Below are positions 31,969 to 57,805 of a DNA stretch of 64,000 bases, in pieces (positions within the stretch are counted from its first letter, which is position 1; every line of letters begins with the position of its first letter). The translations under genes were made by a program, and so were the position numbers. The notes beneath the pieces were generated by a model. It saw only the letters and a program-made list of their open reading frames with translations, did no database searches and had not been told where the DNA came from. Source of the DNA: Pseudomonadota bacterium (lineage in GTDB: Bacteria > Pseudomonadota > Alphaproteobacteria > RF32 > CAG-239); NCBI GenBank assembly GCA_018362935.1, contig JAHALQ010000005.1, positions 62,490-126,489 of the forward strand, given 5' to 3'.

Positions 31969-33729
31969 TTACTGCAACAGACATTCAAAACGGTTGCTGG
32001 TCAGCTGGCCGCATATTTCCGCCAGTTCGGCTGGCTGGCCGTAAATGCGCAGGCGATACCAGTTTCTGCCGTTGACAACAGCTTCTTCAATCTTGGGTTG
32101 GTGCTTTTTCAGCAATCCGAAACGCGAGCTGAGATTTTTCCAATCCGCCACAGCGCTGTTATAATTTTCATAAGAGCCGAGCTGCGCCAGCCGCGCGTTT
32201 TTCGAAGCCGGAGTCCGGGAGGAGCTTTGCGGACGGCGGTATTTATACCCTTCTTTGACAACCTCTTCCAGCCAGTTGTCGCCGCTGGCCCACCCGCTTT
32301 GTTCCATAACCGGCCGCGCTTTCATCTGCATTGTTACGGCCGACAGCATTTCCACAAGATGGCGGTTAAAAGCCTCGCGCAGCGAAACGGCTATATCGTT
32401 TGTTTTGCCGCGCAGCAGCGTTTTGCTGAACGGCGAAAGCCCGGCGTTAAAATAAAGGTTGCGCAGTGCCATTGCCCGCTCTGCTTTAATTTGCGCCGAC
32501 TTCTGCTCCAATATTATCAGGCTGATTTTGTCATTAAGAAGACTGATTTTTTCATCAACCGGCGCCCGGTATGCTTTTTCCTGCTTTTTCACGGCTTTGC
32601 GGACTTTGGCAATTTCCCGTTCGTTGGCGTCATAATCAGCGTCGGCCTGCTCCACGAGCCGGTAAGAAACTTCAACCTGCGTTAAAATGGCGGCGGCCAA
32701 ATCATCAAACACCGTCCGCTGGCTTGCGCGCCAGGCTTCGCTGCCCGGCTTGCTTTCCTGCAGTTGGCGGACATCATTCAACAGCTTGTCGGCAATGCTC
32801 ATCGCCTTGTCATACAAAGCCTGCTCATAAATATCGTTTTCAACTTTCAGGCCGTTGACATCCAAACGTCTGGTCAGCGGATAATCCCGCAAAACATTGT
32901 GCCGCACCTCGCCGACACCGTAATTTTTGACTTTGGCTTTGGCCAGCGCAAACTCGTTGCGGTTGCGCACAGCCGCTTCCTGAAAGATTTCAATGGTATA
33001 ATTCTTGTCAAAATCTTCCAGTTCGTAAAAACGCCTTCCCTCCAGCCGTATTTCCTTAGGCAGCACTTTGGTCAGCTGTTCATATTCGGCCATATTCATG
33101 GCAAACGACTGTTGGAATTCGCGGAGTTTCAACAACGCCACATCCAGATTTTTCTTATATTTTAAGTCTTCCGCACTGAGACTGCCGTTGCGGTTCATCT
33201 TATTTTTCAACTCATCGGACTTCTTTTGTTCGGTCCGCATCATCCGCGCGATTTCTTTCAGTTTGCGATCGGCAAACCAGGCGTCCTGATGTACCCGAAT
33301 TGCCGCCGAAGCCAAATGCTGGGCAGATTTGTTATAAAGGTAGTTGTCCATAAACTGCGAACTGTTTTCAAGATTGGCAACGGCGTAAATCGTGGCAAAT
33401 TCCAACACGCGCGACGCCGCAAACAACCTGCTTTGGTCGTTCACGTCAGAGCTTTTGATATTATTGATAATTTCCTGCGGCTTAAGATTGGGATTTTGGT
33501 TGTAAATTTTCTTGCTGAGGTTCTGAGTGGCCGCATCGGCATTATATTTGGCGGCCCGCGCCATTGTCGCGTATACGTCCAGTTTGCCCTTGACCGGTTC
33601 GGGATTCGAGGCAAAAACCAGCGTATCCGTTTTTATGTCATTGTTTTTGCTTCCGTTATCAACACTGCACGCTGCCAGCGCCATAAGAGCCAAAACCGCG
33701 CCAAATTTAAGCTTACCGGAATTTTTCAT
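31969..33729 (-). CDS. lipoprotein with TolC-like helical repeats and a C-terminal SPOR (peptidoglycan-binding) domain
   Basis: Lipobox LAAC|S; a TolC-like helical/coiled-coil region that I could not tie to one family; C-terminal NWYRLRIYGQPAELAEICGQL motif typical of SPOR domains. Confidence 0.5.
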   Translation of the reverse strand: MKNSGKLKFGAVLALMALAACSVDNGSKNNDIKTDTLVFASNPEPVKGKLDVYATMARAAKYNADAATQNLSKKIYNQNPNLKPQEIINNIKSSDVNDQSRLFAASRVLEFATIYAVANLENSSQFMDNYLYNKSAQHLASAAIRVHQDAWFADRKLKEIARMMRTEQKKSDELKNKMNRNGSLSAEDLKYKKNLDVALLKLREFQQSFAMNMAEYEQLTKVLPKEIRLEGRRFYELEDFDKNYTIEIFQEAAVRNRNEFALAKAKVKNYGVGEVRHNVLRDYPLTRRLDVNGLKVENDIYEQALYDKAMSIADKLLNDVRQLQESKPGSEAWRASQRTVFDDLAAAILTQVEVSYRLVEQADADYDANEREIAKVRKAVKKQEKAYRAPVDEKISLLNDKISLIILEQKSAQIKAERAMALRNLYFNAGLSPFSKTLLRGKTNDIAVSLREAFNRHLVEMLSAVTMQMKARPVMEQSGWASGDNWLEEVVKEGYKYRRPQSSSRTPASKNARLAQLGSYENYNSAVADWKNLSSRFGLLKKHQPKIEEAVVNGRNWYRLRIYGQPAELAEICGQLTSNRFECLLQ

Positions 33730-33842
33730 GCGTTTATTCCCATATGTAACAATATGTAACAAGAATTTAAAAGCTTTTTACCAAATTTCTTGTTATATGT
33801 AAACCAAAATTAAATCACGTGAACTATTTAGGGGTAAAACTT

Positions 33843-37288: not shown

Positions 37289-37325
37289 GCGTGTTTAACC
37301 AGTTTTTAATTAATATCTAATATTG

Positions 37326-37362
37326 TAAAAGAAGCTCATTGTCCCGAGCTTCTTTATTTATA
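37326..37362 (+). terminator. intrinsic terminator (AAGAAGCTC-attgtccc-GAGCTTCTT + TATTTAT)
   Basis: 9-bp stem followed by a T-rich tract. Confidence 0.5.
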
Positions 37363-37380
37363 ACATACGGATAGAAAAAT

Positions 37381-38001
37381 ATGACGATTTCAAAAAGAAT
37401 TTTGACCCTTTGCGCCGTTTGCGGATTACTTTCCGGCTGCGCCTATTTATTTCCGTCAGACAATGAAGAATTGCCGCGTTATACCGAACCGCGCTACAAT
37501 ACACAGGAACCGATACAGCTCAAAGTCAGCAAAATTAATGTCGTTTCCGAATTCACGCCTTCGTTCACACGTCCGCATGTTGAGCACCTCTTTCCGGTAT
37601 CCATAGAAAAATCGGCCAAACTCTGGGCGAATGACCGCCTTAAGGCTGTCGACTTCTCCAGCGAAAACGTCGCCGATGTGATTATCAAAGATGCCAGCGT
37701 CACCGAAACGCTTGAGCCTAATGACAAAATGTGGGCCAAAGACCGTGTCAAATACAAAGCCCGCCTGATTGTCGCCGTGCGAATTCACAATCCGAACAAT
37801 ATGTCCGAAGCAACCACCCAGGTTGAAGGCTGGCGCGAACTGACCATCGACGCCGATACCGACATCGCCGACAAAGAACAGTATTGGAGCTCCATGGTAG
37901 ACAAACTATTTGACGATTATAACAACAAAATGACGGCCAATATATACCAGTATCTCAATTTATACGTGGTCAACCAGCCCTTGGTACCGACTTACTACTA
38001 G
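37381..38001 (+). CDS. hypothetical lipoprotein
   Basis: Lipobox LSGC|A after a signal peptide. Confidence 0.45.
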   Translation: MTISKRILTLCAVCGLLSGCAYLFPSDNEELPRYTEPRYNTQEPIQLKVSKINVVSEFTPSFTRPHVEHLFPVSIEKSAKLWANDRLKAVDFSSENVADVIIKDASVTETLEPNDKMWAKDRVKYKARLIVAVRIHNPNNMSEATTQVEGWRELTIDADTDIADKEQYWSSMVDKLFDDYNNKMTANIYQYLNLYVVNQPLVPTYY

Positions 38002-38405
38002 TTAATTATCCGCGGCATTTTCTGCTTGACGGCCGACAGGTTAAAGGTCGGAATTTTGACGTCATGGGGAATGCTCTGCCCTTCGCGCAGCACTTTGCAT
38101 GAGCCGTAAAAAACGGCATTGGCAAAATCCAGCGGCGCTTCGGAAGTAAATTCAAAATATTCGCCCGGCTCCAGTTCCGGCAGTTCGCCTTTGAAACCGG
38201 CGCTGTCATCGACATAGCTGTTTCCGGCTTCGTCGGTAATCCGCCAGTCTTTGCCGACCAGCTGTATTTTTGAATTGGTATTGTTTTCGATACAGAGGTA
38301 ATACCCCCACCAAAAACGATTGTCGCATTTTTCATCAACCAAGACCGGACGTGCCGATACCACGATTCCGTCGCTTTCCTGAACCAAGAAATCTTGTGTT
38401 TCCAT
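37998..38405 (-). CDS. apaG: ApaG (DUF525) domain protein
   Basis: ApaG-domain signature motifs (WRITDEAG...GEQP-like GELPELEPGE...FEFTS). Confidence 0.7.
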   Translation of the reverse strand: METQDFLVQESDGIVVSARPVLVDEKCDNRFWWGYYLCIENNTNSKIQLVGKDWRITDEAGNSYVDDSAGFKGELPELEPGEYFEFTSEAPLDFANAVFYGSCKVLREGQSIPHDVKIPTFNLSAVKQKMPRIIN

Positions 38406-38529
38406 CGTTTTTGTTCCCCAGCAAAAAATATCTTTTCCGCCGGTTCCCCAACCGGCTATAATTAACCTTTAGTTAACCTTTGTCTGATTCGCAAGCGCCG
38501 ATGACTCTTATCCACCCCTTTTTCCACAC

Positions 38530-38560
38530 AAAAAATGCCGCCGGGCAGCCCCGGCGGCAT
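38530..38560 (-). terminator. intrinsic terminator downstream of cdnL (ATGCCGCCGGG-cagc-CCCGGCGGCAT)
   Basis: 11-bp GC-rich stem; T tract on the minus strand. Confidence 0.55.
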
Positions 38561-38585
38561 AAAATGAAAAAACTTTTGTATTGGT

Positions 38586-39092
38586 TTATTTGGCCAGAAT
38601 ACTCAGAATTTTAGACGTTGCTTCTGCCGGCGCAATATTTTCGCAGACAGCATATTCATTAGCAAGACGGTCAAGTGCCTGCTCATAAATCTGCCGCTCG
38701 CTGTAAGACTGCTCCGCCAGATTCTCGCTGCGGTACAAATCGCGGATAACCTCTGCGATTGCCACCGGGCTGCCCGAATTAATCTTATTCTCGTATTCTT
38801 GAGCGCGGCGCGACCACATAACTTTTTTAACTTTAGCCTTGCCTTTCAGGGTTGTCAGCGCGTCAGCCATTGTATTTTCTTCCGAAATCTTTCTCAAACC
38901 GGTGGTTTCGGCTTTGGACATCGGAATACGAAGCGTCATTTTATCTTTGGCAAAATTAACCACTATTAATTCCAGCTCCGATCCGGCAACGGTCTGCTTG
39001 GTAATATCCGCAACTTTTCCGACGCCGTGAGCAGGATAAACAACATACTCACCAGAACAAAAAGGATTTTTTACTGAGATTTTTTTATTCAT
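38586..39092 (-). CDS. cdnL: CarD-family transcriptional regulator (CdnL)
   Basis: CarD_CdnL_TRCF domain motif YVVYPAHGVGKV. Confidence 0.8.
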   Translation of the reverse strand: MNKKISVKNPFCSGEYVVYPAHGVGKVADITKQTVAGSELELIVVNFAKDKMTLRIPMSKAETTGLRKISEENTMADALTTLKGKAKVKKVMWSRRAQEYENKINSGSPVAIAEVIRDLYRSENLAEQSYSERQIYEQALDRLANEYAVCENIAPAEATSKILSILAK

Positions 39093-39279
39093 ATCATTTC
39101 CCTGTTTTTTATTGATTCTGTGGCGGTTTTATTCAAACACAGCGTTACCATATCACAAAATCCGGTTTAAATCTAGTCAAAAAATAATTTTTTGTCAAAA
39201 ATTGCCCGGCTTTTTAACTCAATATTAATTCTAACTCTTTAGTATAGTTTATAATATCTGTAATAGCGGGAAAATTACG

Positions 39280-41007
39280 ATGAAGAATGCCAGAATATTT
39301 GCTTTTGCTGCTCTGTTGAGCCTGTGCGGAACAGCCCGTGCCGCGGTTGTTCCTGAATATGCCACCAACACCTATAAGAATCACGAATTGTCGCGCGCCG
39401 AGCAAAAATGCATTGACGAAGGCTATAAGATTACTTATGCCAACTGTTCCAATCAGACGGCGCCGGCCGAACGCTGCCCGCATCACGATTCGTACTACCG
39501 CAGTTGTTCTCAGGAGCAATGGTGCCGCAATAATAATTTTACCTTCCTTGAAAAAGACTGCAAAATCCCGCTTTATCCGCACAAAATGTGCGATAACAAG
39601 TTCCCGCTTTACCGCGTTTGCATCGAAAACATCGGCAAAGCCTGTGAAGACAAGGGCTTTGTCCATAAGGACAAATGCCAGCTCAATGACAAAAAGTGCC
39701 CTTATTCGCCCGAATACGGCAAATGCTGCGACAATTGCCCGAAATTCACGCATTCCGTAAATGCCGTCCCCGAGGGCTATGTTGCCTTCGGCGAAACCTG
39801 CACCACCTGTTCCGGCGAAGTCAAAACCAACATCAGGCCGGCAGAATGCGAAGGTTTCCAGAACTGCCGGTACGGGCCGATGAGTTCACAGACGCCATCC
39901 TGCCTGCAAGGAAAGAAGACCTTGTACAGCCTTTGCAAAACCGACGCTATGGTCTGCCAGGAAAAAGGCTTTATCGTCAATTCCTGCGCGGACACGGAAG
40001 ACGCTTTTGATTGCCCCGAAAATCCGAGCTTTAAGCATTGCAAAATCAATTGCCTTAAACTGGCGCGTATCGACAATCCCGAAGCCGATGTCTTTGGCGC
40101 CGACCAGGAAAACCCCATTCTTGACGTAACCAAAAATGAACTGATATCCGTCGTCGGGATGATTGACAAAGACTGCCGCAACCTCGGGCGCCCGACACTC
40201 ACTTTCCGCATTAACAAAAGCAATCTCGAACAATATGCCGGACTGTTCGACCGTTATATTGCCGACGTCAACATCAATCTCATATTTGAAGAACCGGTCA
40301 CCCTCTCGGCCAACGGCAAATACCGCAATGTCAAAATAACCGCGCAGGGCGAATTTGCCGGTTGCCCGCTCAGCGGCCACAAAACCGAAATTCTCGGCAC
40401 TGTCAGTTTTAACAACTTCCCGAATATTTGCACCAATTTTACCGTCTTCCCCAATGCCAAGCTGCTGACCACCGGCAGTATCAAAGGCAATGTGGATGTC
40501 GGCAAAGACGCGGCTCTCGGCATCAAGGGCGACCTCAACGGCGCGCTCAAGGCTCAAAGTTTTGCCGAGATTTTCATTAAAGGTCAGTTGAACTACACGG
40601 ACGAACTAAATAATAACCTTGATAATGAAAGTATCGTCTTTGGCTGCAACTCAAAAATAAAAATCGGCGGCGGCATCAATGCCAAAACGTCCAATGTTGT
40701 CATCAAACAGTGGAGCAAGCTTGACACCCCCTATATCAAAATTACCTCAACCAGTGACAACACGAGCCTGCCAAACACTTTGTCAAGCATACATCTGTAC
40801 AAGTATGCCAAATTGTTCAGCACCTATGAACAAACCGTTTTTCCGCTGGTTGAAAACGACGACGCGCAGTGTGACGACAAATATTACCGGCATCTTGGCT
40901 CCGCCACTGACGCCGCGCTGCAGGAATTCAGCCTGGAACCGTCCAATCGCGGCGAAGACAAATGGCAGTGCCGCAGCCTCACTTTCAAACAGCAGGAGTG
41001 TAACTAA
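39280..41007 (+). CDS. secreted cysteine-rich protein (575 aa) with three C-x-[DE]-[EK]-G-[FY] modules and a beta-rich C-terminal region
   Basis: Signal peptide ...GTARA|AV; modules CIDEGYKITYANC, CEDKGFVHKDKCQ, CQEKGFIVNSCAD; more than 35 Cys in the first 260 aa; the C-terminal half is G/N/K-rich and likely beta-solenoid. Confidence 0.55.
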   Translation: MKNARIFAFAALLSLCGTARAAVVPEYATNTYKNHELSRAEQKCIDEGYKITYANCSNQTAPAERCPHHDSYYRSCSQEQWCRNNNFTFLEKDCKIPLYPHKMCDNKFPLYRVCIENIGKACEDKGFVHKDKCQLNDKKCPYSPEYGKCCDNCPKFTHSVNAVPEGYVAFGETCTTCSGEVKTNIRPAECEGFQNCRYGPMSSQTPSCLQGKKTLYSLCKTDAMVCQEKGFIVNSCADTEDAFDCPENPSFKHCKINCLKLARIDNPEADVFGADQENPILDVTKNELISVVGMIDKDCRNLGRPTLTFRINKSNLEQYAGLFDRYIADVNINLIFEEPVTLSANGKYRNVKITAQGEFAGCPLSGHKTEILGTVSFNNFPNICTNFTVFPNAKLLTTGSIKGNVDVGKDAALGIKGDLNGALKAQSFAEIFIKGQLNYTDELNNNLDNESIVFGCNSKIKIGGGINAKTSNVVIKQWSKLDTPYIKITSTSDNTSLPNTLSSIHLYKYAKLFSTYEQTVFPLVENDDAQCDDKYYRHLGSATDAALQEFSLEPSNRGEDKWQCRSLTFKQQECN

Positions 41008-41009
41008 GG

Positions 41010-41507
41010 CTATGGGTTGACATTGGGCGAATATATGGTTTCCGGATTACTCGGATTGCCGATTGCCTTAAGATCCTTAACCGGATAGGCCTGTACGTCA
41101 TAAACCATGCCGTCGGCTTCCATAAGAGTATTTTGGAACTGTTTGCCCAGATTTTCCGATGAGGCGTTGCCGTCAGGCTGCGCCTTTTCTGCTTTCTGAA
41201 GTTCTCCCGCCGTCGGTGCAGACGCATTTATCCCGGCCGGGAGCTGCGCCGGCTGCCCGGGCTCTGCAATGACTTCCGGCAGCGGATTACCCAGCGGATT
41301 GACATTATTGTCCGGCTGTTCGACAATCACCTCGTCGGTCTTCCCGTCCGGACGCCGGGATTTTCCGAACACGACCGTCGGAGCCGTTTCCGTCTGCATT
41401 TGCGCATTTTCTTCTTGTATCCCTTGAGCCTGCGCCGGCCTTGAACCGCTGTTTACCGCACAGGCAATCCACAACAGCATCGCAAAATTTTTCATCATTT
41501 CCGACAT
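41010..41507 (-). CDS. secreted proline-rich hypothetical protein
   Basis: Signal peptide; GGAGGAGGA RBS. Confidence 0.45.
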   Translation of the reverse strand: MSEMMKNFAMLLWIACAVNSGSRPAQAQGIQEENAQMQTETAPTVVFGKSRRPDGKTDEVIVEQPDNNVNPLGNPLPEVIAEPGQPAQLPAGINASAPTAGELQKAEKAQPDGNASSENLGKQFQNTLMEADGMVYDVQAYPVKDLKAIGNPSNPETIYSPNVNP

Positions 41508-41626
41508 TTAAAATCCTCCTCCGCTGCTTATTAAATAGTCACGCTTTAACCAAAAACAAGGGGGATTAAGAATCTCTTAAGCCTTTTGCGCTACACTGGA
41601 TAAATCTGGAATAAGGAGAACAGTAA

Positions 41627-41800
41627 ATGTCCGAATTAGGAGCCCTCAGCAGTTACGCGCTGGCCATTCAGCAGACTCAGATGAGCCTGATAAAAAACAG
41701 TGCCGAAATGCAGCAAAAACTTGTTGAGGTATTATTTGAAGACAACCGCAGCGTTCCGGCATCTTCCGATGTCGGGCAAAACGTCGACGTTTCAATTTAG
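41627..41800 (+). CDS. small protein resembling the YjfB putative motility protein family (57 aa)
   Basis: Absent from the ORF track because it is under 60 aa; strong AAGGAGAA RBS; ...SSDVGQNVDVSI C-terminus like the YjfB family. Confidence 0.4.
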   Translation: MSELGALSSYALAIQQTQMSLIKNSAEMQQKLVEVLFEDNRSVPASSDVGQNVDVSI

Positions 41801-42114
41801 AAACTGAGCATTATAATAAACGAAATTGTCAGGCCGCAGGCGAGAACAAATTTGACAATTCCGCCCAGCCCCGCAAATATCATCGCGGTATAATCCAGAT
41901 TAACGCCGTCGTCTTTATAGACTTTCTTAAACAAAAATACATGGGCAAAAGAAATCAGCGCCGCCAGAGCGTATAAATGATAATCGCTGAACAGCTCGCG
42001 CATCTGCTCCGCATCCATCCGAATCATGCAGTAGACTGCCAGAAAAATTCCCAGTAATACCATCGGGTTTAAAATCGCGCCCGACGTAAACAGCGCCATA
42101 ATACCTTTAATCAT
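41797..42114 (-). CDS. hypothetical membrane protein (3 transmembrane helices)
   Basis: Hydrophobic segments only. Confidence 0.4.
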   Translation of the reverse strand: MIKGIMALFTSGAILNPMVLLGIFLAVYCMIRMDAEQMRELFSDYHLYALAALISFAHVFLFKKVYKDDGVNLDYTAMIFAGLGGIVKFVLACGLTISFIIMLSF

Positions 42115-42123
42115 AAATTAATC

Positions 42124-42348
42124 CTAACGGGTTTCCCAAACGCGGCGGCTTAAATATCTGCCGTCTGCCGCTTTCATATTAGTCGGCCAGACACAGCGGG
42201 TCGTTCCGTTGCTGCCGCTGAAACGGACTTCCGAATCTTTCATCCGGGCAACCACCAGCGAAGCTATCCCCCGGCTCTGTATGCCGACTTTGCGTCCGCG
42301 CTGCCAGTCAAATAAAGACCTGTCGATTGTTTTCTGCATCCTTGTCAT
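42124..42348 (-). CDS. hypothetical small basic protein
   Basis: AGGGAG RBS; no recognisable domain. Confidence 0.3.
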   Translation of the reverse strand: MTRMQKTIDRSLFDWQRGRKVGIQSRGIASLVVARMKDSEVRFSGSNGTTRCVWPTNMKAADGRYLSRRVWETR

Positions 42349-42402
42349 CTCCCTGAAAGAGCTTTATCTCCTCCAGTCTAGGCTCAATTAGTAAATAAAA
42401 AT

Positions 42403-43764
42403 TTAAGATTGGGCATCGCGCAGTTTTTCAATCAGTGCCAACAAACGCCTGCCTGCTTCGTCAACTTTGGCGGCATTGCTGCCGCAGACCCACACGCGGA
42501 TAAGCGGTTCGGTGCCTGACGGATGGATAACCGCCCGGCCGCAATCGCCCAGATTCCGCCGACATTCTTCCAACAAAGACTGCACTTCGGTGCTCAGCGC
42601 AATCGGTTTCACCTGTTCACGGCTGTTCAGCCGCGGATTTTCAAAAAACAAATGTTCAAATTCAAACAGCGGAAAAATCTCGCTCATTTTTTTGCCGGAA
42701 GCCTTAAGCCCTTCTGCCAAAACCAGTGATATTATCAACGCATCGCCGGAACGGCTGTAATCCGACAAGACGATATGTCCAGATTCCTCGCCGCCGACCG
42801 CACCGCCTGTTTCACACATTTTTTCGACGACCGGACGTTCGCCGACCGGCGTGGAATAATAGTCCAGCCCGAGCTTTCCGCGCACAAATTTCTCCAATCC
42901 GGTATTGGACAGGATTGTCGATACCACCGGGCGCCCGCGATTCACGCCTTTTTGCTCCAGATACTGGGCCAGAAAAGCAATCAGCTGTTCGCTTCTGACC
43001 AATTCGCCTTTCTCGTCGCAGACTTTAATCCGGTCTCCGTCGCCGTCAACGGCTATCCCCAAGTCAGCGCCGAAAGCCCTGACTTCTGCCAGCATATTTT
43101 CCACATGCTGTGACCCGCAATCGCGGTTGATGTTATAACCGTCGGGTGAACAGGCAATTGCCTTGACATCGGCGCCAAGCTCGGCAAACAATTCCGGCAT
43201 TATTGCCGAAAAACAGCCGTTGGCACAGTCAAGTACGATTTTCAGGCCTTGCAGCGGTTTGCTGCCCTCGGCGGTTGACAGAGCAATTTGCTTATATTTG
43301 TTCAAAACTTCGTCCGAACAGCTTTTGCACCCGATTTTTTCGGCTTCGAAAACAAAATTATTTTGCTCAATCAAGGCTTCAAGCCGCGCAGTCATCTCGT
43401 CGGAAAACTTATTGCCGTCAGCCGCAATCAGCTTAATGCCGTTGTCATGATACGGATTATGCGACGCGGTAATCATCACTGCCATATCGACGCCAAGCTG
43501 CGGGGTCAGGCTGGTGACCGCCGGAGTCGGCACCACCCCGAGCGACATAACATCAATGCCGGAAGACAGAAAACCGGCGCTGAGCGCCGCCTCGAGCATA
43601 TCGCCGGATATGCGGGTATCTCTGGCAATCGCAACTTTTTTCTGTTTGTCACAAATCAGGACAGACGCGGCTGCGGCCAGCCGAAAAGCAAAATCCGCGT
43701 TCATCGGAAAAACATTAGCAACACCGCGAACCCCGTCAGTTCCGAACCATTTGTTTTTAGCCAT
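42403..43764 (-). CDS. glmM: phosphoglucosamine mutase
   Basis: Active-site motif TASHNP and the alpha-D-phosphohexomutase domains. Confidence 0.9.
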   Translation of the reverse strand: MAKNKWFGTDGVRGVANVFPMNADFAFRLAAAASVLICDKQKKVAIARDTRISGDMLEAALSAGFLSSGIDVMSLGVVPTPAVTSLTPQLGVDMAVMITASHNPYHDNGIKLIAADGNKFSDEMTARLEALIEQNNFVFEAEKIGCKSCSDEVLNKYKQIALSTAEGSKPLQGLKIVLDCANGCFSAIMPELFAELGADVKAIACSPDGYNINRDCGSQHVENMLAEVRAFGADLGIAVDGDGDRIKVCDEKGELVRSEQLIAFLAQYLEQKGVNRGRPVVSTILSNTGLEKFVRGKLGLDYYSTPVGERPVVEKMCETGGAVGGEESGHIVLSDYSRSGDALIISLVLAEGLKASGKKMSEIFPLFEFEHLFFENPRLNSREQVKPIALSTEVQSLLEECRRNLGDCGRAVIHPSGTEPLIRVWVCGSNAAKVDEAGRRLLALIEKLRDAQS

Positions 43765-46466: not shown

Positions 46467-47192
46467 TTATTTAGCCTGATTAATGGCATCCTGAAGAACG
46501 CCCTCATCCAGAGTTTGAATGATTTTTCCGTTCAGAATCAAAGTCGGAACGCCGTTAACCTGGATTTTGGCAGCCAGATTAGAAGTCTCGTCCAAAGCCT
46601 TGTTGACTTTTTCAGATTCCATATCGGCTTTCATTTTTTCCAGATCGACACCGGCCTTAACAGCGGCTTCGTCGATTTTGGCTTCGGTCAGAGGACCGCT
46701 GATTTCAAAAATAGCCGTATAAACTTCCGAGAACTTGCCCTGCTCTTTAGCGGCCAGAGAAGCCTTGGCGGCATACTTAGACATCGGTGACAGGAATGCC
46801 AGAGGTTTGGCGACAACTTTCAAATCGTCGTTCTTGGCCAGAACATTTTTCAAAACCGGATAGATTTTGTGGCAGTAGCCGCAGGAATAGTCAAAGAATT
46901 CAACCAAAACGACCTTGCCGTCCGGATTTCCGAGGAAACCGTCAGCCGGATTTTTGGTCAGTTCTTCTTCGCTCTGAGCCAGAAGTTCCTGCGCTCTTTT
47001 CTGAGCTTCTTCTCTCTGTCTGGTCTCATAGTTCTGCATAGCCTGGATAATCATTTCCGGATTTTCGTTCAGGGCCTGTTCGACACTGACCGAATTACCG
47101 CCCTTGTTGCAGCAGACAATGCACATAACCAATGCGGCAATGGCAACGACCAGCGCTGCCAGAGATACATATACAGCATTAATTTTATTCAT
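46467..47192 (-). CDS. DsbA-family thiol:disulfide oxidoreductase
   Basis: Signal anchor; thioredoxin-fold CGYC active site. Confidence 0.7.
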   Translation of the reverse strand: MNKINAVYVSLAALVVAIAALVMCIVCCNKGGNSVSVEQALNENPEMIIQAMQNYETRQREEAQKRAQELLAQSEEELTKNPADGFLGNPDGKVVLVEFFDYSCGYCHKIYPVLKNVLAKNDDLKVVAKPLAFLSPMSKYAAKASLAAKEQGKFSEVYTAIFEISGPLTEAKIDEAAVKAGVDLEKMKADMESEKVNKALDETSNLAAKIQVNGVPTLILNGKIIQTLDEGVLQDAINQAK

Positions 47193-47361
47193 GTTAAATT
47201 CCTCAAAGTTATTTATTATCAACTCATCTAATCTAACAAACTATTAGATATTTACAAGCGGAAAATAATATTTATTTATTAGATTTGTTAAAATGGTAAA
47301 TTATTTTTTCATAAATGAGTGATATATCTGACTTAAGTTTAAACCTTTAGAAAGCTGTAAA

Positions 47362-48021
47362 ATGTTTCATATTAACGTATCTCTTTTTTCCAAAACCAAA
47401 AGCCTTGAAAATAAAATCGACTTTTTCCATGACAAGCTGCTTGACGCGGCCATGACATTTAAAAAAGCGGTTCGCGTCTTTCTCGACGAAGGGCGCAGCG
47501 AAGACTATAAAAAACTGTCCAAACAGGTCAAACAGATTGAGCACGACGCCGACAACCTGCGCCGCGAAATTGAAAACAGCCTTTATGCCGAAAACCTGAT
47601 TCCCGATTTGCGCGCCGACGTTTTGCACCTGGTTGAGAACCTTGACAAAGTCATCAATAAGTTTGATGAAGTGACCTATATGTTTTATATCGAAAAACCC
47701 GAAGTCGACCAAGCGTACCATATTCGGATTAACGAACTCTGCGACCTCAGCGCCGAATGCGCCGAAAACATGGCCAAAGCCAGCCGCGCCTTTTTCCGCG
47801 ACCTCAGCTCGGTACGCGACTATTCGCAAAAGGTCTACTTCATTGAACATGAATCCGACATCAGCGCCGACAATCTGCGCAAAGCCGTCTTTGATTCTGA
47901 ACTGCCGTTGGCCAACAAGCTCCAGTTGTCAAACTTCATCAACGAAATTGCCGATATCGCCGACATTGCCGAAGACTTCATTGATGAACTGCTCATCTTC
48001 ACGATTAAGAGAGATATTTAA
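47362..48021 (+). CDS. PhoU-like DUF47 protein (phosphate-transport regulator-related), partner of PiT
   Basis: DUF47/TIGR00153-like helical protein immediately upstream of pit. Confidence 0.7.
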   Translation: MFHINVSLFSKTKSLENKIDFFHDKLLDAAMTFKKAVRVFLDEGRSEDYKKLSKQVKQIEHDADNLRREIENSLYAENLIPDLRADVLHLVENLDKVINKFDEVTYMFYIEKPEVDQAYHIRINELCDLSAECAENMAKASRAFFRDLSSVRDYSQKVYFIEHESDISADNLRKAVFDSELPLANKLQLSNFINEIADIADIAEDFIDELLIFTIKRDI

Positions 48022-48023
48022 CC

Positions 48024-49079
48024 ATGGATTTGACTTTTTTGCTGTTTTTGAGTTCCGGTTTGTTTTTAGGGTGGTCGCTCGGCGCCAATGATGCGTCTAA
48101 CATTTTCGGCACCGCCGTCGGCACCAAAATGGTCAGCTTCCGCACCGCCGCGGTTATATCTTCGATTTTTATCATTATCGGCGCGGTCTATGCCGGTTCG
48201 GGCGCTTCGCAGACTTTGGGGCATCTAGGCACGATTAATACGCTTCCCGGCGCTTTTATGTCCGCTTTGGCCGCCGCCCTGACCATCTACTGGATGGTAC
48301 TGTCTTCCATGCCCATTTCCACCTCTCAGGCGATTGTCGGCGCCATTATCGGCTGGAACTTTTTTTCCGGCAAACCGACCGATATCAGCGTTTTAAGCCA
48401 GATTGTCAGCACCTGGGTAGTCTGCCCGATTCTTTCAGGCCTGATTGCCGTTTTTCTTTATTGGCTGGTACGCGTGATTATCCGCAAGTCACACATCCAC
48501 TTGCTGCGCCAAGACAGCTATACCCGCGCAGGATTGATTATCGCCGGCGCATTCGGCGCCTATGCGCTGGGCGCCAACAACATTGCCAATGTTATGGGCG
48601 TATTTGTCAATTCGTCGCCGCTGCACAGCGTCAATTTCGGATGGGGTATCGTGCTGAGCGCCACACAGGTTTTGTTTCTGATTGGCGGCATCGCCATCAG
48701 CTTTGGCGTCGCGACTTACTCGCACAAAGTCATGAACACCGTCGGTAACTCGATTATGAAAATGTCGCCGCTCATGGCCTGGGTCGTGGTCGTGTCACAG
48801 TCTTTGGTGCTGTTTTTGTTTGCCTCGCAAAACCTCAAATATTTTCTGATGTCGCATGACCTGCCTTCGCTGCCTCTTGTTCCGGTATCCAGCTCACAGG
48901 CGGTCATCGGCGCGTTGATTGGCATCGGCCTGGCACGCGGCGGCAGAACACTGCATTGGGGGCTCATCGGGAAAATAGCCCTCAGCTGGATAACCACGCC
49001 GATAATTGCCGCCATTGTCTGCTATGTCTCGCTGTTCTTTTTGCAAAATGTCTTCGGACAAGTGGTCTTTCTGCCCTAG
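48024..49079 (+). CDS. pit: inorganic phosphate transporter, PiT family
   Basis: GANDxxN motifs in both halves (GANDASNIFG, GANNIANVMG). Confidence 0.85.
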   Translation: MDLTFLLFLSSGLFLGWSLGANDASNIFGTAVGTKMVSFRTAAVISSIFIIIGAVYAGSGASQTLGHLGTINTLPGAFMSALAAALTIYWMVLSSMPISTSQAIVGAIIGWNFFSGKPTDISVLSQIVSTWVVCPILSGLIAVFLYWLVRVIIRKSHIHLLRQDSYTRAGLIIAGAFGAYALGANNIANVMGVFVNSSPLHSVNFGWGIVLSATQVLFLIGGIAISFGVATYSHKVMNTVGNSIMKMSPLMAWVVVVSQSLVLFLFASQNLKYFLMSHDLPSLPLVPVSSSQAVIGALIGIGLARGGRTLHWGLIGKIALSWITTPIIAAIVCYVSLFFLQNVFGQVVFLP

Positions 49080-57109: not shown

Positions 57110-57805
57110 TTATTCCTTCATAGATAACAACATATAACCTTTTCCGCGAACCGTCTGCAGGTAACGCGGATTTTTGGTATCAGGCTCAATTTTTTTCCTC
57201 AGACGCGTAATTTGCACGTCAATTGAACGCGGACTCTGGCCGGCGCCCAAAATTTCCGCCAGTTTCTCGCGGCTGAATACCTGCCCCGATTTGGCGCCCA
57301 AAACGTTGAGCAGTGCCTGCTCGACCGGCGTGATGTGAATAACCTCACCTTGTCTGGTGAGCAGCTCTTTGGTTTGCAGATTATAAGTACACAACCCCAG
57401 ATTCAGACATTCGTCGACTTCCGGTTTTTCGGCAGGCGCACGGCGCAAAATGCTTTTAATCCGCAATACCAGTTCCTTGGGTTCAAAAGGCTTGGGCAGA
57501 TAATCGTCGGCACCGCTCTCCAAACCGCAGATTCGGTCTTCGGTTTCGCCCATGGCTGTCAGCATGATGACCGGGATATTATTTTCCCGCCGCAGTTTTG
57601 CCAAAAATTCCAAACCGCTTTCTTCCGGCATCATAATGTCCATAATCAGCAAATCAAACTTATACTGTTCCATGAGGTGACGCGCATCCGCCGCCGACTT
57701 TGCCGTCGATGTATAAAAACCGCTCTCCCGCAAAAATCTTTGCAGGAGAGAACGCAGACGCGTGTCGTCGTCGACGACCAGAATATGTTTGATTTCACAA
57801 TCCAT
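57110..57805 (-). CDS. OmpR-family response regulator
   Basis: REC domain (VVDDD ... D in LLIMDIMMP ... KPF) plus a winged helix (RSIDVQITRLRKKIE...YLQTVRGKGY). Confidence 0.85.
   Translation of the reverse strand: MDCEIKHILVVDDDTRLRSLLQRFLRESGFYTSTAKSAADARHLMEQYKFDLLIMDIMMPEESGLEFLAKLRRENNIPVIMLTAMGETEDRICGLESGADDYLPKPFEPKELVLRIKSILRRAPAEKPEVDECLNLGLCTYNLQTKELLTRQGEVIHITPVEQALLNVLGAKSGQVFSREKLAEILGAGQSPRSIDVQITRLRKKIEPDTKNPRYLQTVRGKGYMLLSMKE

What the first reader, a model, noticed from the sequence alone, without database searches (positions are those of the whole stretch)
39280..41800. Secreted cysteine-rich modular protein with an adjacent secreted Pro-rich protein and a YjfB-like mini-protein
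The 575-aa protein has a signal peptide, an N-terminal ~260 aa with more than 35 cysteines including three C-x-[DE]-[EK]-G-[FY]-x4-5-C modules, and a C-terminal ~300 aa that is G/N/K-rich and solenoid-like. It resembles no family I know. Immediately downstream lie a convergent secreted proline-rich protein and an unannotated 57-aa ORF with a strong RBS resembling the YjfB motility family. This could be a novel surface adhesin or host-interaction locus.
Basis: seen in the sequence. Interest (0 to 1): 0.5.

Follow-up and report, generated by a model that had tools for sequence, protein, structure and literature searches.

The report
Secreted cysteine-rich beta-helix protein, CtrA-box locus
This is a real, strongly conserved gene of uncultured gut Alphaproteobacteria that encodes an exported protein made of a previously undescribed disulfide-rich domain joined to an adhesin-like beta-helix, and it sits in a small group of genes whose promoters all carry a motif matching the binding site of CtrA, the alphaproteobacterial cell-cycle and motility regulator.

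Summary
The three ORFs exist as described, and all are conserved genes. Some details were wrong. The N-terminal 270 aa hold 26 cysteines, not more than 35. There are four cysteine modules, not three.

Orthologues occur in 51 species-level gut alphaproteobacterial MAGs. The gene is always divergent from carD/cdnL (57/57 loci). It is usually followed by the Pro-rich, YjfB-like, 3-TM and small basic genes (48-50/57). The 57-aa ORF belongs to the YjfB_motility family at family level (21/31 orthologues hit PF14070).

New observation: all five TTAA-N7-TTAA sites in the 64-kb window lie within 4.8 kb here, and all are intergenic. Four are conserved in orthologous loci, including 55/57 upstream of this gene.

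Most likely this is a DsbA-oxidised, non-enzymatic envelope or surface binding protein expressed under CtrA control. The function is inferred, not shown.

The parts
39280..41007 (+). CDS of the 575-aa exported Cys-rich / beta-helix protein (called CRP575 here)
   Evidence: ORF. 103 full-length homologue clusters of 558-593 aa. Invariant cysteines. AlphaFold2 model pLDDT 86.7.
39280..39342 (+). Signal peptide (aa 1-21, predicted cleavage ARA|AV)
   Evidence: Variable sequence, hydrophobic core in 39/39 members, -1 = A/G/S and -3 = a small residue. C16 is not conserved and there is no lipobox.
39343..39390 (+). Conserved N-terminal tail of the mature protein (aa 22-37, VVPEYAxNxYxNHEL), modelled with low confidence
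   Evidence: pLDDT below 50 for residues 23-36, yet 59% mean pairwise identity, A28 invariant and Y27/N30/Y32 at 90% or more. Role unexplained.
39391..40056 (+). Disulfide-rich N-domain (aa 38-259): modules M1 38-77, M2 78-115, M3 116-151, 8-Cys insert 152-219, M4 220-259
40072..41004 (+). Right-handed parallel beta-helix domain with a Cys-stapled C-terminal end (aa ~265-575)
39214..39228 (.). TTAA-N7-TTAA (CtrA-box-like) motif, centre 59 bp upstream of the CRP575 ATG, in the divergent carD/CRP575 intergenic region
   Evidence: Present at the equivalent position in 55 of 57 orthologous loci. Consensus taken from PMC3692519.
39240..39248 (+). Conserved -10-like element TAGTATAGT downstream of the CtrA-box-like motif
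   Evidence: Conserved columns in the 21-locus intergenic alignment. Its role as a -10 element is inferred.
38586..39092 (-). carD/cdnL gene, divergent neighbour in every locus examined
   Evidence: Pfam CarD_TRCF_RID and CarD_C. Adjacent in 57/57 loci despite rearranged flanks.
41010..41507 (-). 165-aa exported Pro/Gln/Asn-rich protein, with a conserved N-terminal PTVVxG...NPLG block and a C-terminal DFQNTLxEANGxVYDxQxYP...TIYSPNVN block around a variable linker
   Evidence: 95 homologue clusters, all from alphaproteobacterial MAGs and all unnamed. No Pfam or PDB hit. Present downstream of CRP575 in 50/57 loci.
41566..41580 (.). TTAA-N7-TTAA motif in the divergent intergenic region, centre 54 bp upstream of the YjfB-like ATG
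   Evidence: Conserved in 26 of 50 loci, 51-59 bp from the YjfB-like start.
41627..41800 (+). 57-aa YjfB_motility-like protein gene with an AAGGAG ribosome-binding site
   Evidence: PF14070 E=0.005 for the window copy. 21/31 orthologues match, best 7.2e-9. Called as a gene in other assemblies.
41797..42114 (-). 105-aa hydrophobic, predicted membrane protein gene (three hydrophobic segments by eye), convergent with and overlapping the YjfB-like gene by 4 nt
   Evidence: Conserved in 49/57 loci. No Pfam hit.
42124..42348 (-). 74-aa small basic protein gene (65-72 aa in most relatives; conserved FDWSR...RCVWP...SRYLSRRVW)
   Evidence: Conserved in 48/57 loci.
38462..38476 (.). Exact full-site TTAA-N7-TTAAC, 64 bp upstream of apaG (37998-38405, -)
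   Evidence: Conserved upstream of apaG in essentially all 34 loci that include the gene (34 site counts, two loci counted twice).
37295..37309 (.). TTAACCAG-type TTAA-N7-TTAA motif, 79 bp upstream of the lipoprotein gene 37381-38001 (+; lipobox LLSGC)
   Evidence: Conserved in 33/34 loci.

Best explanation
CRP575 is exported through Sec and cleaved by signal peptidase I. In the periplasm its 32 mature cysteines are oxidised; 32 is an even number, enough for 16 disulfides. A DsbA homologue is encoded 5.5 kb away.

The product has two domains. The first is a rigid, elongated, disulfide-laddered N-domain made of four ~38-aa helix-plus-hairpin 4-Cys modules and an 8-Cys insert. The second is a right-handed parallel beta-helix whose C-terminal end is stapled by cysteines.

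The beta-helix has no recognisable catalytic signature, and its closest solved folds are adhesin passenger domains. I therefore think it acts as a non-enzymatic binding or structural module of the cell envelope or surface. The most conserved parts, the N-terminal tail and modules M1-M2, probably dock onto a conserved bacterial partner. The less conserved beta-helix probably faces the ligand.

The gene is monocistronic. Its promoter carries a conserved TTAA-N7-TTAA box placed about where a -35 element would lie relative to a conserved -10-like element. The same box lies upstream of three neighbouring genes (a lipoprotein gene, apaG and the YjfB-like gene). I therefore propose that these genes are switched on together by CtrA, the alphaproteobacterial cell-cycle and motility response regulator.

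Shown here: gene reality, conservation, synteny, domain anatomy, predicted folds, absence of known family signatures, and presence and conservation of the motif.
Inferred: export and oxidation, the binding function, the final location, and CtrA control.
For: Real gene under purifying selection:
- 103 full-length clusters.
- 30 invariant cysteines across the 39 aligned homologues.

Signal peptide: features present in 39/39 members.

Oxidising machinery:
- A DsbA homologue lies in the window at 46467-47222.
- A distant relative of the Cys domain lies directly downstream of dsbA in L060.

Folds:
- Full-length model pLDDT 86.7 and N-domain model pLDDT 94.6.
- Module repeats by hhalign.

Adhesin-type associations of the N-domain:
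- It is fused to Lcl_C (PF07603), a domain Pfam names after the Legionella collagen-like protein, in P0122, P0125 and P0137 above Pfam's cut-off. P0143 gives a sub-threshold match.
- It occurs in tandem arrays, for example seven matches in P0109.

Conservation gradient: M1 77% > M2 68% > beta-helix 43-49% mean pairwise identity.

No catalytic signature: invariant C-domain residues are mostly Gly and Cys, and no Pfam enzyme family is matched by any of the 39 members.

CtrA-box evidence:
- 5 sites in the window against 1.9 expected, all within 4.8 kb (P about 1e-4) and all intergenic.
- Conserved upstream of CRP575 in 55/57 loci, the lipoprotein gene in 33/34, apaG in 34/34 and the YjfB-like gene in 26/50. 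None lies upstream of recX, hslO, glmM or ftsH.
- 172 sites in 524 kb of loci against 48 +/- 7 simulated.
- The consensus TTAA-N7-TTAAC and the half-site TTAACCAT are given in PMC3692519.
Against: - No experiment and no characterised homologue exists, so function rests on fold resemblance at 11% sequence identity or less.
- The protein has no device for crossing or anchoring to the outer membrane. It may simply be periplasmic, where known beta-helix proteins are mostly polysaccharide-processing enzymes or NosD-like.
- Its position among housekeeping genes and its presence in 51 species-representative genomes fit a housekeeping envelope role better than a host-specific adhesin.
- No ctrA gene is in the window. 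The only OmpR-type regulator there is 29% identical to my recalled Caulobacter CtrA sequence, so the presence of CtrA in this organism is assumed.
- The box upstream of CRP575 lacks the terminal C of the full consensus. It lies in a shared divergent region, so it could serve carD instead.
Confidence: 0.45

Rival explanations
1. The protein stays in the periplasm and its beta-helix is a carbohydrate-active enzyme or polysaccharide-handling module (lyase, hydrolase, epimerase, or a NosD-like accessory), for example acting on a capsule, exopolysaccharide or peptidoglycan-associated polymer. The Cys-rich domain would be a stabilising or targeting module.
For: - No outer-membrane export or anchor signal.
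- Position among housekeeping genes, close to glmM and, in one genome, to the mreBCD-pbp2-rodA cell-wall genes.
Against: - No Pfam glycosidase, lyase or Beta_helix match at E<=1 in any of the 39 members.
- Invariant C-domain residues are mainly Gly and Cys, with only K434, D482 and N526 as invariant polar residues and no acidic cluster.
- The best structural matches are adhesins.
Confidence: 0.2
2. It is a periplasmic structural component of a polar or motility-associated envelope machine (a flagellar basal-body accessory ring, or a pilus or holdfast-like anchor), built together with the YjfB-like, Pro-rich, 3-TM and lipoprotein products.
For: - Shared CtrA-box-like motifs on four promoters.
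- CtrA controls flagellar motility in other Alphaproteobacteria (title of PMC3692519).
- The neighbour belongs to the YjfB 'putative motility protein' family.
- The five unknown-function genes are held together in 48-50 of 57 loci.
- FlaF lies nearby in one rearranged locus.
Against: - No flagellar, pilus or secretion gene is adjacent in the window.
- YjfB's own role is untested.
- In 7 of 57 loci CRP575 is separated from the downstream genes.
- There is no resemblance to any known basal-body protein.
Confidence: 0.15
3. It is a secreted toxin or effector of the VacA or large-clostridial type that acts on host or competitor cells.
Against: - One orthologue in each of 51 species-representative genomes, at a fixed locus among housekeeping genes, and 44-85% identical to the window protein. 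That is unlike accessory, mobile or fast-evolving toxins.
- No pore-forming or enzymatic domain and no secretion system nearby.
Confidence: 0.05

Closest known systems
Beta-helical adhesin domains: L. reuteri SRRP binding region (5nxk), Haemophilus Hap (3syj), Bordetella Vag8 and pertactin, E. coli EtpA, Ag43 and TibA
   Different: Sequence identity is 11% or less. There is no C-terminal autotransporter barrel, no N-terminal TPS domain with a TpsB partner, no LPXTG and no serine-rich repeats. CRP575 carries a 220-aa disulfide-rich N-domain that none of these have, and it is a syntenic gene among housekeeping genes rather than an accessory virulence gene.
Periplasmic or secreted beta-helix carbohydrate-active proteins (pectate lyase superfamily, AlgG/AlgE epimerases, VexL, NosD)
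   Different: No Pfam match to any of these families in 39 members. No conserved catalytic acidic or basic cluster.
TNF-receptor-type cysteine-rich domains (DcR3, CD40, HVEM)
   Same: Conceptually alike: an elongated ladder of small disulfide-stapled modules. These were the top Foldseek hits for the N-domain.
YjfB_motility family (PF14070), for the 57-aa ORF
   Same: Same length (57 aa; the profile is 57 positions) and an almost end-to-end match. 21 of 31 orthologues hit, best E 7.2e-9.
   Different: The window copy itself scores 17.3 bits, below the 27-bit cut-off. To my knowledge the family was named from Bacillus subtilis and has no demonstrated function. Here it is alphaproteobacterial and preceded by a CtrA-box-like motif rather than a sigma-D promoter.
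CtrA-activated promoters of Alphaproteobacteria
   Same: TTAA-N7-TTAA(C) full sites and TTAACCA-type half sites, with the box about one promoter-length upstream of the coding start.
   Different: Binding is untested, ctrA was not seen in the available sequence, and the target genes (apaG, a lipoprotein gene, the Cys-rich protein gene and a yjfB-like gene) are not classical CtrA targets.

Membership tests
Type Va autotransporter adhesins | C-terminal 12-stranded beta-barrel translocator domain | tested here: not met
   The protein ends at the beta-helix cap (WQCRSLTFKQQECN). No Pfam Autotransporter hit. The model shows no barrel.
Type Va autotransporter adhesins | Beta-helical passenger domain with an N-terminal signal peptide | tested here: met
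Two-partner secretion TpsA exoproteins (FHA, EtpA, HxuA) | N-terminal TPS secretion domain and an adjacent TpsB transporter gene | tested here: not met
   The N-terminus is the Cys-rich domain. No haemagglutination-activity domain hit. No TpsB-like gene in any of the loci.
Pectate-lyase-superfamily or GH28 enzymes | Sequence signature and conserved catalytic Asp or Lys/Arg cluster on the beta-helix | tested here: not met
   No Pfam match at E<=1 in 39 members. Invariant residues are mostly Gly and Cys.
Bacterial lipoproteins | Lipobox [LVI][ASTVI][GAS]C at the end of the signal peptide | tested here: not met
   C16 is preceded by L-S-L, is not conserved, and lies before the conserved AxA cleavage site.
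Bactofilin (PF04519) | Pfam match above the gathering score; cytoplasmic polymer-forming beta-helix | tested here: not met
YjfB_motility (PF14070), 57-aa ORF | Match to the Pfam profile above the gathering score (27 bits) | tested here: inconclusive
   The window copy scores 17.3 bits, E 0.005. 21 of 31 orthologues match at E<=0.1, best 7.2e-9. Membership is supported for the orthologous group as a whole.
CtrA regulon | TTAA-N7-TTAA(C) box in the promoter region, conserved in orthologous promoters | tested here: met
   Consensus from PMC3692519.
CtrA regulon | CtrA is encoded by the organism, binds the site, and expression depends on it | not testable with these tools
   No ctrA in the window or fetched loci. 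GcrA is seen in a contig carrying a distant relative of the Cys-rich domain (L058). Binding and expression need experiments.
Known cysteine-rich repeat families (TNFR CRD, Cys_rich_FGFR and similar) | Significant sequence or structure match | tested here: not met

The most novel reading that the evidence does not exclude
The N-domain is a new disulfide-rich fold built from a 'C-x3-G-[FY]' 4-Cys helix-hairpin module. It serves as a common scaffold for a large, so far unnoticed repertoire of exported proteins in anaerobic gut Alphaproteobacteria. CRP575 is its one universally conserved member: a CtrA-timed polar or surface adhesin that, together with the co-regulated lipoprotein, ApaG, YjfB-like and Pro-rich proteins, links the motile-to-attached switch to gut colonisation.
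Probability: 0.2. Interest if true: 0.65.

Novelty: new variant of a known kind. Interest (0 to 1): 0.45.

Why it matters
Gut Alphaproteobacteria of this clade are uncultured and almost entirely uncharacterised.

- The work defines a conserved envelope protein family with a confidently modelled but unmatched disulfide-rich domain.
- It shows that this domain is a recurrent building block in about 120 other protein clusters.
- It gives a concrete, testable regulatory hypothesis: a compact group of CtrA-box promoters.

If correct, it offers an entry point to the cell-cycle and motility regulon and the surface biology of these organisms. It also adds a new fold family for structural databases. 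On present evidence it is a well-characterised 'conserved hypothetical', not a surprise that overturns anything.

Tried and rejected
1. Pfam and NCBIfam scans of the 575-aa protein and of 39 family members gave nothing except sub-threshold Bactofilin hits in 9/39 members. I attribute these to beta-helix periodicity.
2. A PDB sequence search with the family profile at E<=10 gave no hit.
3. Fold search of the N-domain alone:
   - Foldseek against the PDB was also non-significant.
   - The AFDB50 library was unavailable.
4. A word-indexed search with the N-domain alignment found only 17 proteins, none named. The cluster-member look-up gave no names either.
6. I looked for paralogues in the window and in all fetched loci. 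There were none.
7. I looked for ctrA in the window using a Caulobacter CtrA sequence recalled from memory. The only hit was a 29%-identical OmpR-type regulator at 57110-57805.
8. The sigma-70 promoter and terminator scan of 38900-42500 was not above the shuffled expectation. It did pick out a TTGACA-17-TAGATT promoter for carD that coincides with conserved intergenic blocks.
9. Pfam, NCBIfam or PDB searches of the Pro-rich, 3-TM, small basic and lipoprotein products gave nothing significant.
10. The antisense ORFs inside the gene (39214-39753 and 39886-40557, minus strand) are dismissed as shadows of the conserved plus-strand frame.
11. The lipoprotein, autotransporter, TPS and toxin readings were rejected, as set out in the membership table.
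Full report
**Observation**

- 39280-41007 (+), 575 aa.
- 41010-41507 (-), 165 aa. It is convergent, and its stop codon lies 2 bp from the stop of the first gene.
- 41627-41800 (+), 57 aa, preceded by AAGGAG 8 nt before the ATG.

The three C-x-[DE]-[EK]-G-[FY] motifs are at C44, C122 and C226. The cysteine count was overstated. There are 26 Cys in the first 270 residues (25 in the mature part) and 33 in the whole protein. The C-terminal 300 residues are richest in N (9.5%), L, K, G, I and T. The 165-aa protein is only moderately proline-rich, at 10.3%.

**Is it a real gene?**

Yes.
- A search of about 5.8 billion proteins found 103 clusters, all 558-593 aa and aligned over 85% or more of the query (nearly all 94-100%), at 44-100% identity. 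The only names given are 'MAG: hypothetical protein [Alphaproteobacteria bacterium]'.
- In a 39-sequence alignment, every one of the 25 mature N-domain cysteines is invariant, as are C299, C456, C531, C564 and C574.
- The N-terminal 21 residues behave as a classical signal peptide in all 39 members. Sequence identity is low (23%), the core is hydrophobic, position -1 is A/G/S and position -3 is a small residue. There is no lipobox.

**Who has it, and where?**

A scan of one genome per GTDB species found orthologues in 51 genomes. All are uncultured Alphaproteobacteria from animal or human guts: roe deer, sheep, rumen, rabbit, Hadza and Nepali people, and 'Proteobacteria bacterium CAG:495'. To my knowledge GTDB places CAG:495 in order RF32; I did not test this.

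Across 57 loci:
- The gene is always divergently adjacent to carD/cdnL (57/57). This holds even where the flanks on either side have been rearranged, for example mreBCD-pbp2-rodA upstream in L004 and different downstream genes in L001, L006, L051-L053 and L057.
- Downstream, the order is Pro-rich gene, YjfB-like gene, a predicted 3-TM protein gene, a small basic protein gene, then glmM. This order is kept in 48-50 of 57 loci.

It is also not an operon. CRP575 is monocistronic and convergent with the Pro-rich gene. The Pro-rich and YjfB-like genes are divergent. The 3-TM and small basic genes lie downstream of glmM on the other strand.

**Anatomy**

AlphaFold2 on the family alignment gave a confident model, with mean pLDDT 86.7.

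Residues 38-259 form the cysteine-rich domain.
- It has four modules, each an alpha-helix followed by a beta-hairpin with four Cys: M1 38-77, M2 78-115, M3 116-151 and M4 220-259.
- An 8-Cys insert of two hairpin pairs (152-219) lies between M3 and M4.
- Profile-profile comparison supports the repeat: M1~M2 78%, M1~M4 87%, M3~M4 89%, M1~M3 54%.
- The domain modelled alone reaches pLDDT 94.6.

Residues ~265-575 form a right-handed parallel beta-helix.

The mature protein has 32 cysteines, 25 in the N-domain and 7 in the C-domain. This is compatible with 16 disulfides, including one inter-domain bridge. That is an inference, because I could not access the model coordinates.

Conservation falls from the N-terminus onward. 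Mean pairwise identity is 77% for M1, 68% for M2, 55% for M3 and 43-49% for the beta-helix. The 16 residues after the cleavage site (VVPEYAxNxYxNHEL) are modelled with low confidence, which suggests disorder, yet they are well conserved. I cannot explain this. A docking peptide is one possibility.

**Comparison with known folds and families**

- *Sequence searches.* The window protein gives no Pfam or NCBIfam hit, and the family profile finds nothing in the PDB at E<=10. Among the 39 members the only recurrent match is sub-threshold Bactofilin (9/39, best E 0.0017). I attribute this to beta-helix periodicity.

**The Cys-rich domain is a widespread module**

An exhaustive profile search of 1.84 billion representatives gave 145 hits.
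- Only three full-length 50%-identity clusters match both domains.
- About 120 clusters share only the N-domain.
- Within the N-domain, the common core is M1-M3 plus the insert, about 180 aa with about 20 conserved Cys.

These N-domain-only proteins carry other C-termini:
- Lcl_C adhesin-type domains: P0122, P0125 and P0137 above Pfam's cut-off, and P0143 sub-threshold.
- Other Cys-rich repeats.
- Tandem arrays of the domain, for example seven matches in P0109.

Most start with a signal peptide followed by a conserved 'CFLPDC' or 'CF[VI]TDT' motif.

Two contigs that carry such relatives look alphaproteobacterial or are syntenic with the window:
- L058 carries GcrA, MotAB and PFOR.
- L060 carries PHO4-PhoU-DsbA, syntenic with window 46467-49079, and there the Cys-rich gene lies immediately after dsbA.

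The window itself encodes a DsbA homologue at 46467-47222 (Pfam DSBA, E 2.6e-24). No paralogue of the domain lies in the window.

**The neighbours**

- *57-aa ORF.* It belongs to the YjfB_motility family at the level of its orthologous group. 21 of 31 orthologues hit PF14070 with a best E of 7.2e-9, although the window copy is below the cut-off at 17.3 bits.
- *165-aa protein.* It has a signal peptide, a conserved N-terminal block (PTVVxG...NPLG), a variable Pro/Gln/Asn-rich linker and a strongly conserved C-terminal block (DFQNTLxEANGxVYDxQxYP...TIYSPNVN). Its 95 homologue clusters carry only alphaproteobacterial-MAG names, where any name is given, and none is annotated. It has no Pfam or PDB match.

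**A regulatory link not in the original finding**

I aligned the 167-206-bp carD/CRP575 intergenic region from 21 loci. It contains blocks that stay conserved even where the proteins are only 46% identical.
- Two blocks coincide with a TTGACA-17-TAGATT promoter for carD.
- Another block is TTAAC-N6-TTAA, that is, TTAA-N7-TTAA, at 39214-39228. It is followed by a conserved -10-like TAGTATAGT.

TTAA-N7-TTAAC is the full CtrA recognition site and TTAACCAT is the half-site (PMC3692519).

The exact pattern TTAA-N7-TTAA occurs only five times in the 64-kb window, against 1.9 expected. All five fall within 37295-42121, and all lie between genes. A span that small has a probability of about 1.3e-4 for five randomly placed sites.

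| Site | Position relative to genes |
|---|---|
| 37295 | 79 bp upstream of a lipoprotein gene |
| 38462 | 64 bp upstream of apaG; an exact TTAA-N7-TTAAC |
| 39214 | 59 bp upstream of CRP575 |
| 41566 | 54 bp upstream of the YjfB-like gene |
| 42107 | At the start of the 3-TM protein gene |

In the orthologous loci the motif is kept upstream of CRP575 in 55/57, the lipoprotein gene in 33/34, apaG in 34/34 and the YjfB-like gene in 26/50. It is never found upstream of recX, hslO, glmM or ftsH. Overall there are 172 sites in 524 kb, against 48 +/- 7 in first-order Markov simulations.

I therefore propose that these four promoters form a small CtrA-controlled group.

Caveats:
- No ctrA gene lies in the available sequence.
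- Binding is untested.
- The box before CRP575 lies in a shared divergent region, so it could act on carD.

**Interpretation**

The most likely picture has these elements:
- A Sec-exported, DsbA-oxidised, non-enzymatic binding or structural protein of the envelope or surface.
- A rigid disulfide-laddered N-domain, whose most conserved end probably contacts a conserved bacterial partner.
- An adhesin-like beta-helix.
- Expression under the CtrA cell-cycle and motility programme, together with three neighbouring genes.

I give this composite 0.45. The structural and export parts are much firmer than the adhesin and CtrA parts.

Rivals:
- A periplasmic polysaccharide-active beta-helix enzyme, 0.2. 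The fold class and the lack of an outer-membrane export device speak for it. The absence of any enzyme signature speaks against it.
- A structural part of a polar or motility machine, 0.15.
- A toxin or effector, 0.05.

**Novelty and verdict**

The beta-helix is a known kind of domain. The N-domain is an undescribed family with no fold match, and the CtrA-box grouping is new as far as I can tell. I rate the finding 'new variant of a known kind' with interest 0.45. It is a solid, well-delimited conserved hypothetical with a testable regulatory hypothesis, but its function is still inferred.

Noticed in passing
window 39146-39201: Three intergenic blocks (TACCATATCACAAAA, GGTTTAAATCTAGTCAAAAAA, TTTTTGTCAAAAA) are almost invariant across 21 loci whose proteins are as little as 46% identical. 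Read on the minus strand they contain TTGACA-17-TAGATT, a likely carD/cdnL promoter, plus further conserved sequence of unknown role.
   Followed up: partly
window 46467-47222 (-) and L060:2899-3648: A DsbA-family gene lies next to PhoU/PHO4 genes in the window. In the related contig L060 the same PHO4-PhoU-DsbA arrangement is followed directly by a 'CFLPDC'-type member of the Cys-rich domain family (P0184), at the position where the window has ftsH.
   Followed up: partly
window 42107-42121: The fifth TTAA-N7-TTAA site overlaps the start codon of the 105-aa 3-TM protein gene, at the junction with the small basic protein gene. It is not conserved in the other loci (1/50), so it is probably chance or strain-specific.
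   Followed up: partly
window 37381-38001 (+): A 206-aa lipoprotein (lipobox LLSGC) with no Pfam or PDB match. It is conserved in 33 of the 57 loci, and its gene overlaps the 3' end of the convergent apaG by 4 nt. Its promoter carries a nearly invariant TTAACCAGTTTTTAAT.
   Followed up: partly
window 42124-42348 (-) and 41797-42114 (-): Two conserved genes of unknown function lie downstream of glmM: a small basic protein (FDWSR...RCVWP...SRYLSRRVW) and a predicted 3-TM protein. Both are present in 48-49 of 57 loci, and neither has a Pfam match.
   Followed up: partly
window 31969-33762 (-): A 597-aa ORF (TTG start) with no Pfam family at E<=0.001. Not examined further.
   Followed up: no
proteins P0109-P0247: Many distant carriers of the Cys-rich domain share a conserved motif directly after the signal peptide ('[AG][AIV]CFLPDC' or 'CF[VI]TDT'). 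Another subset shares a His/Thr-rich 'HTHT...P.ELKP' leader. Their meaning is unknown.
   Followed up: no
P0185 (2026 aa): A collagen-repeat and CBM5/12 protein with a sub-threshold lower-baseplate (BppL_N) match, which looks phage tail-fibre-like. It matches a ~60-aa stretch of the CRP575 beta-helix profile eight times in register. This is probably beta-helix repeat similarity only.
   Followed up: no
window 41005-41012 and 41797-41800: Both convergent gene pairs (CRP575 with the Pro-rich gene, and the YjfB-like gene with the 3-TM gene) end with abutting or 4-nt-overlapping stop codons and have no room for a terminator. The overlap is conserved in other loci, for example L003 7746-7749.
   Followed up: no
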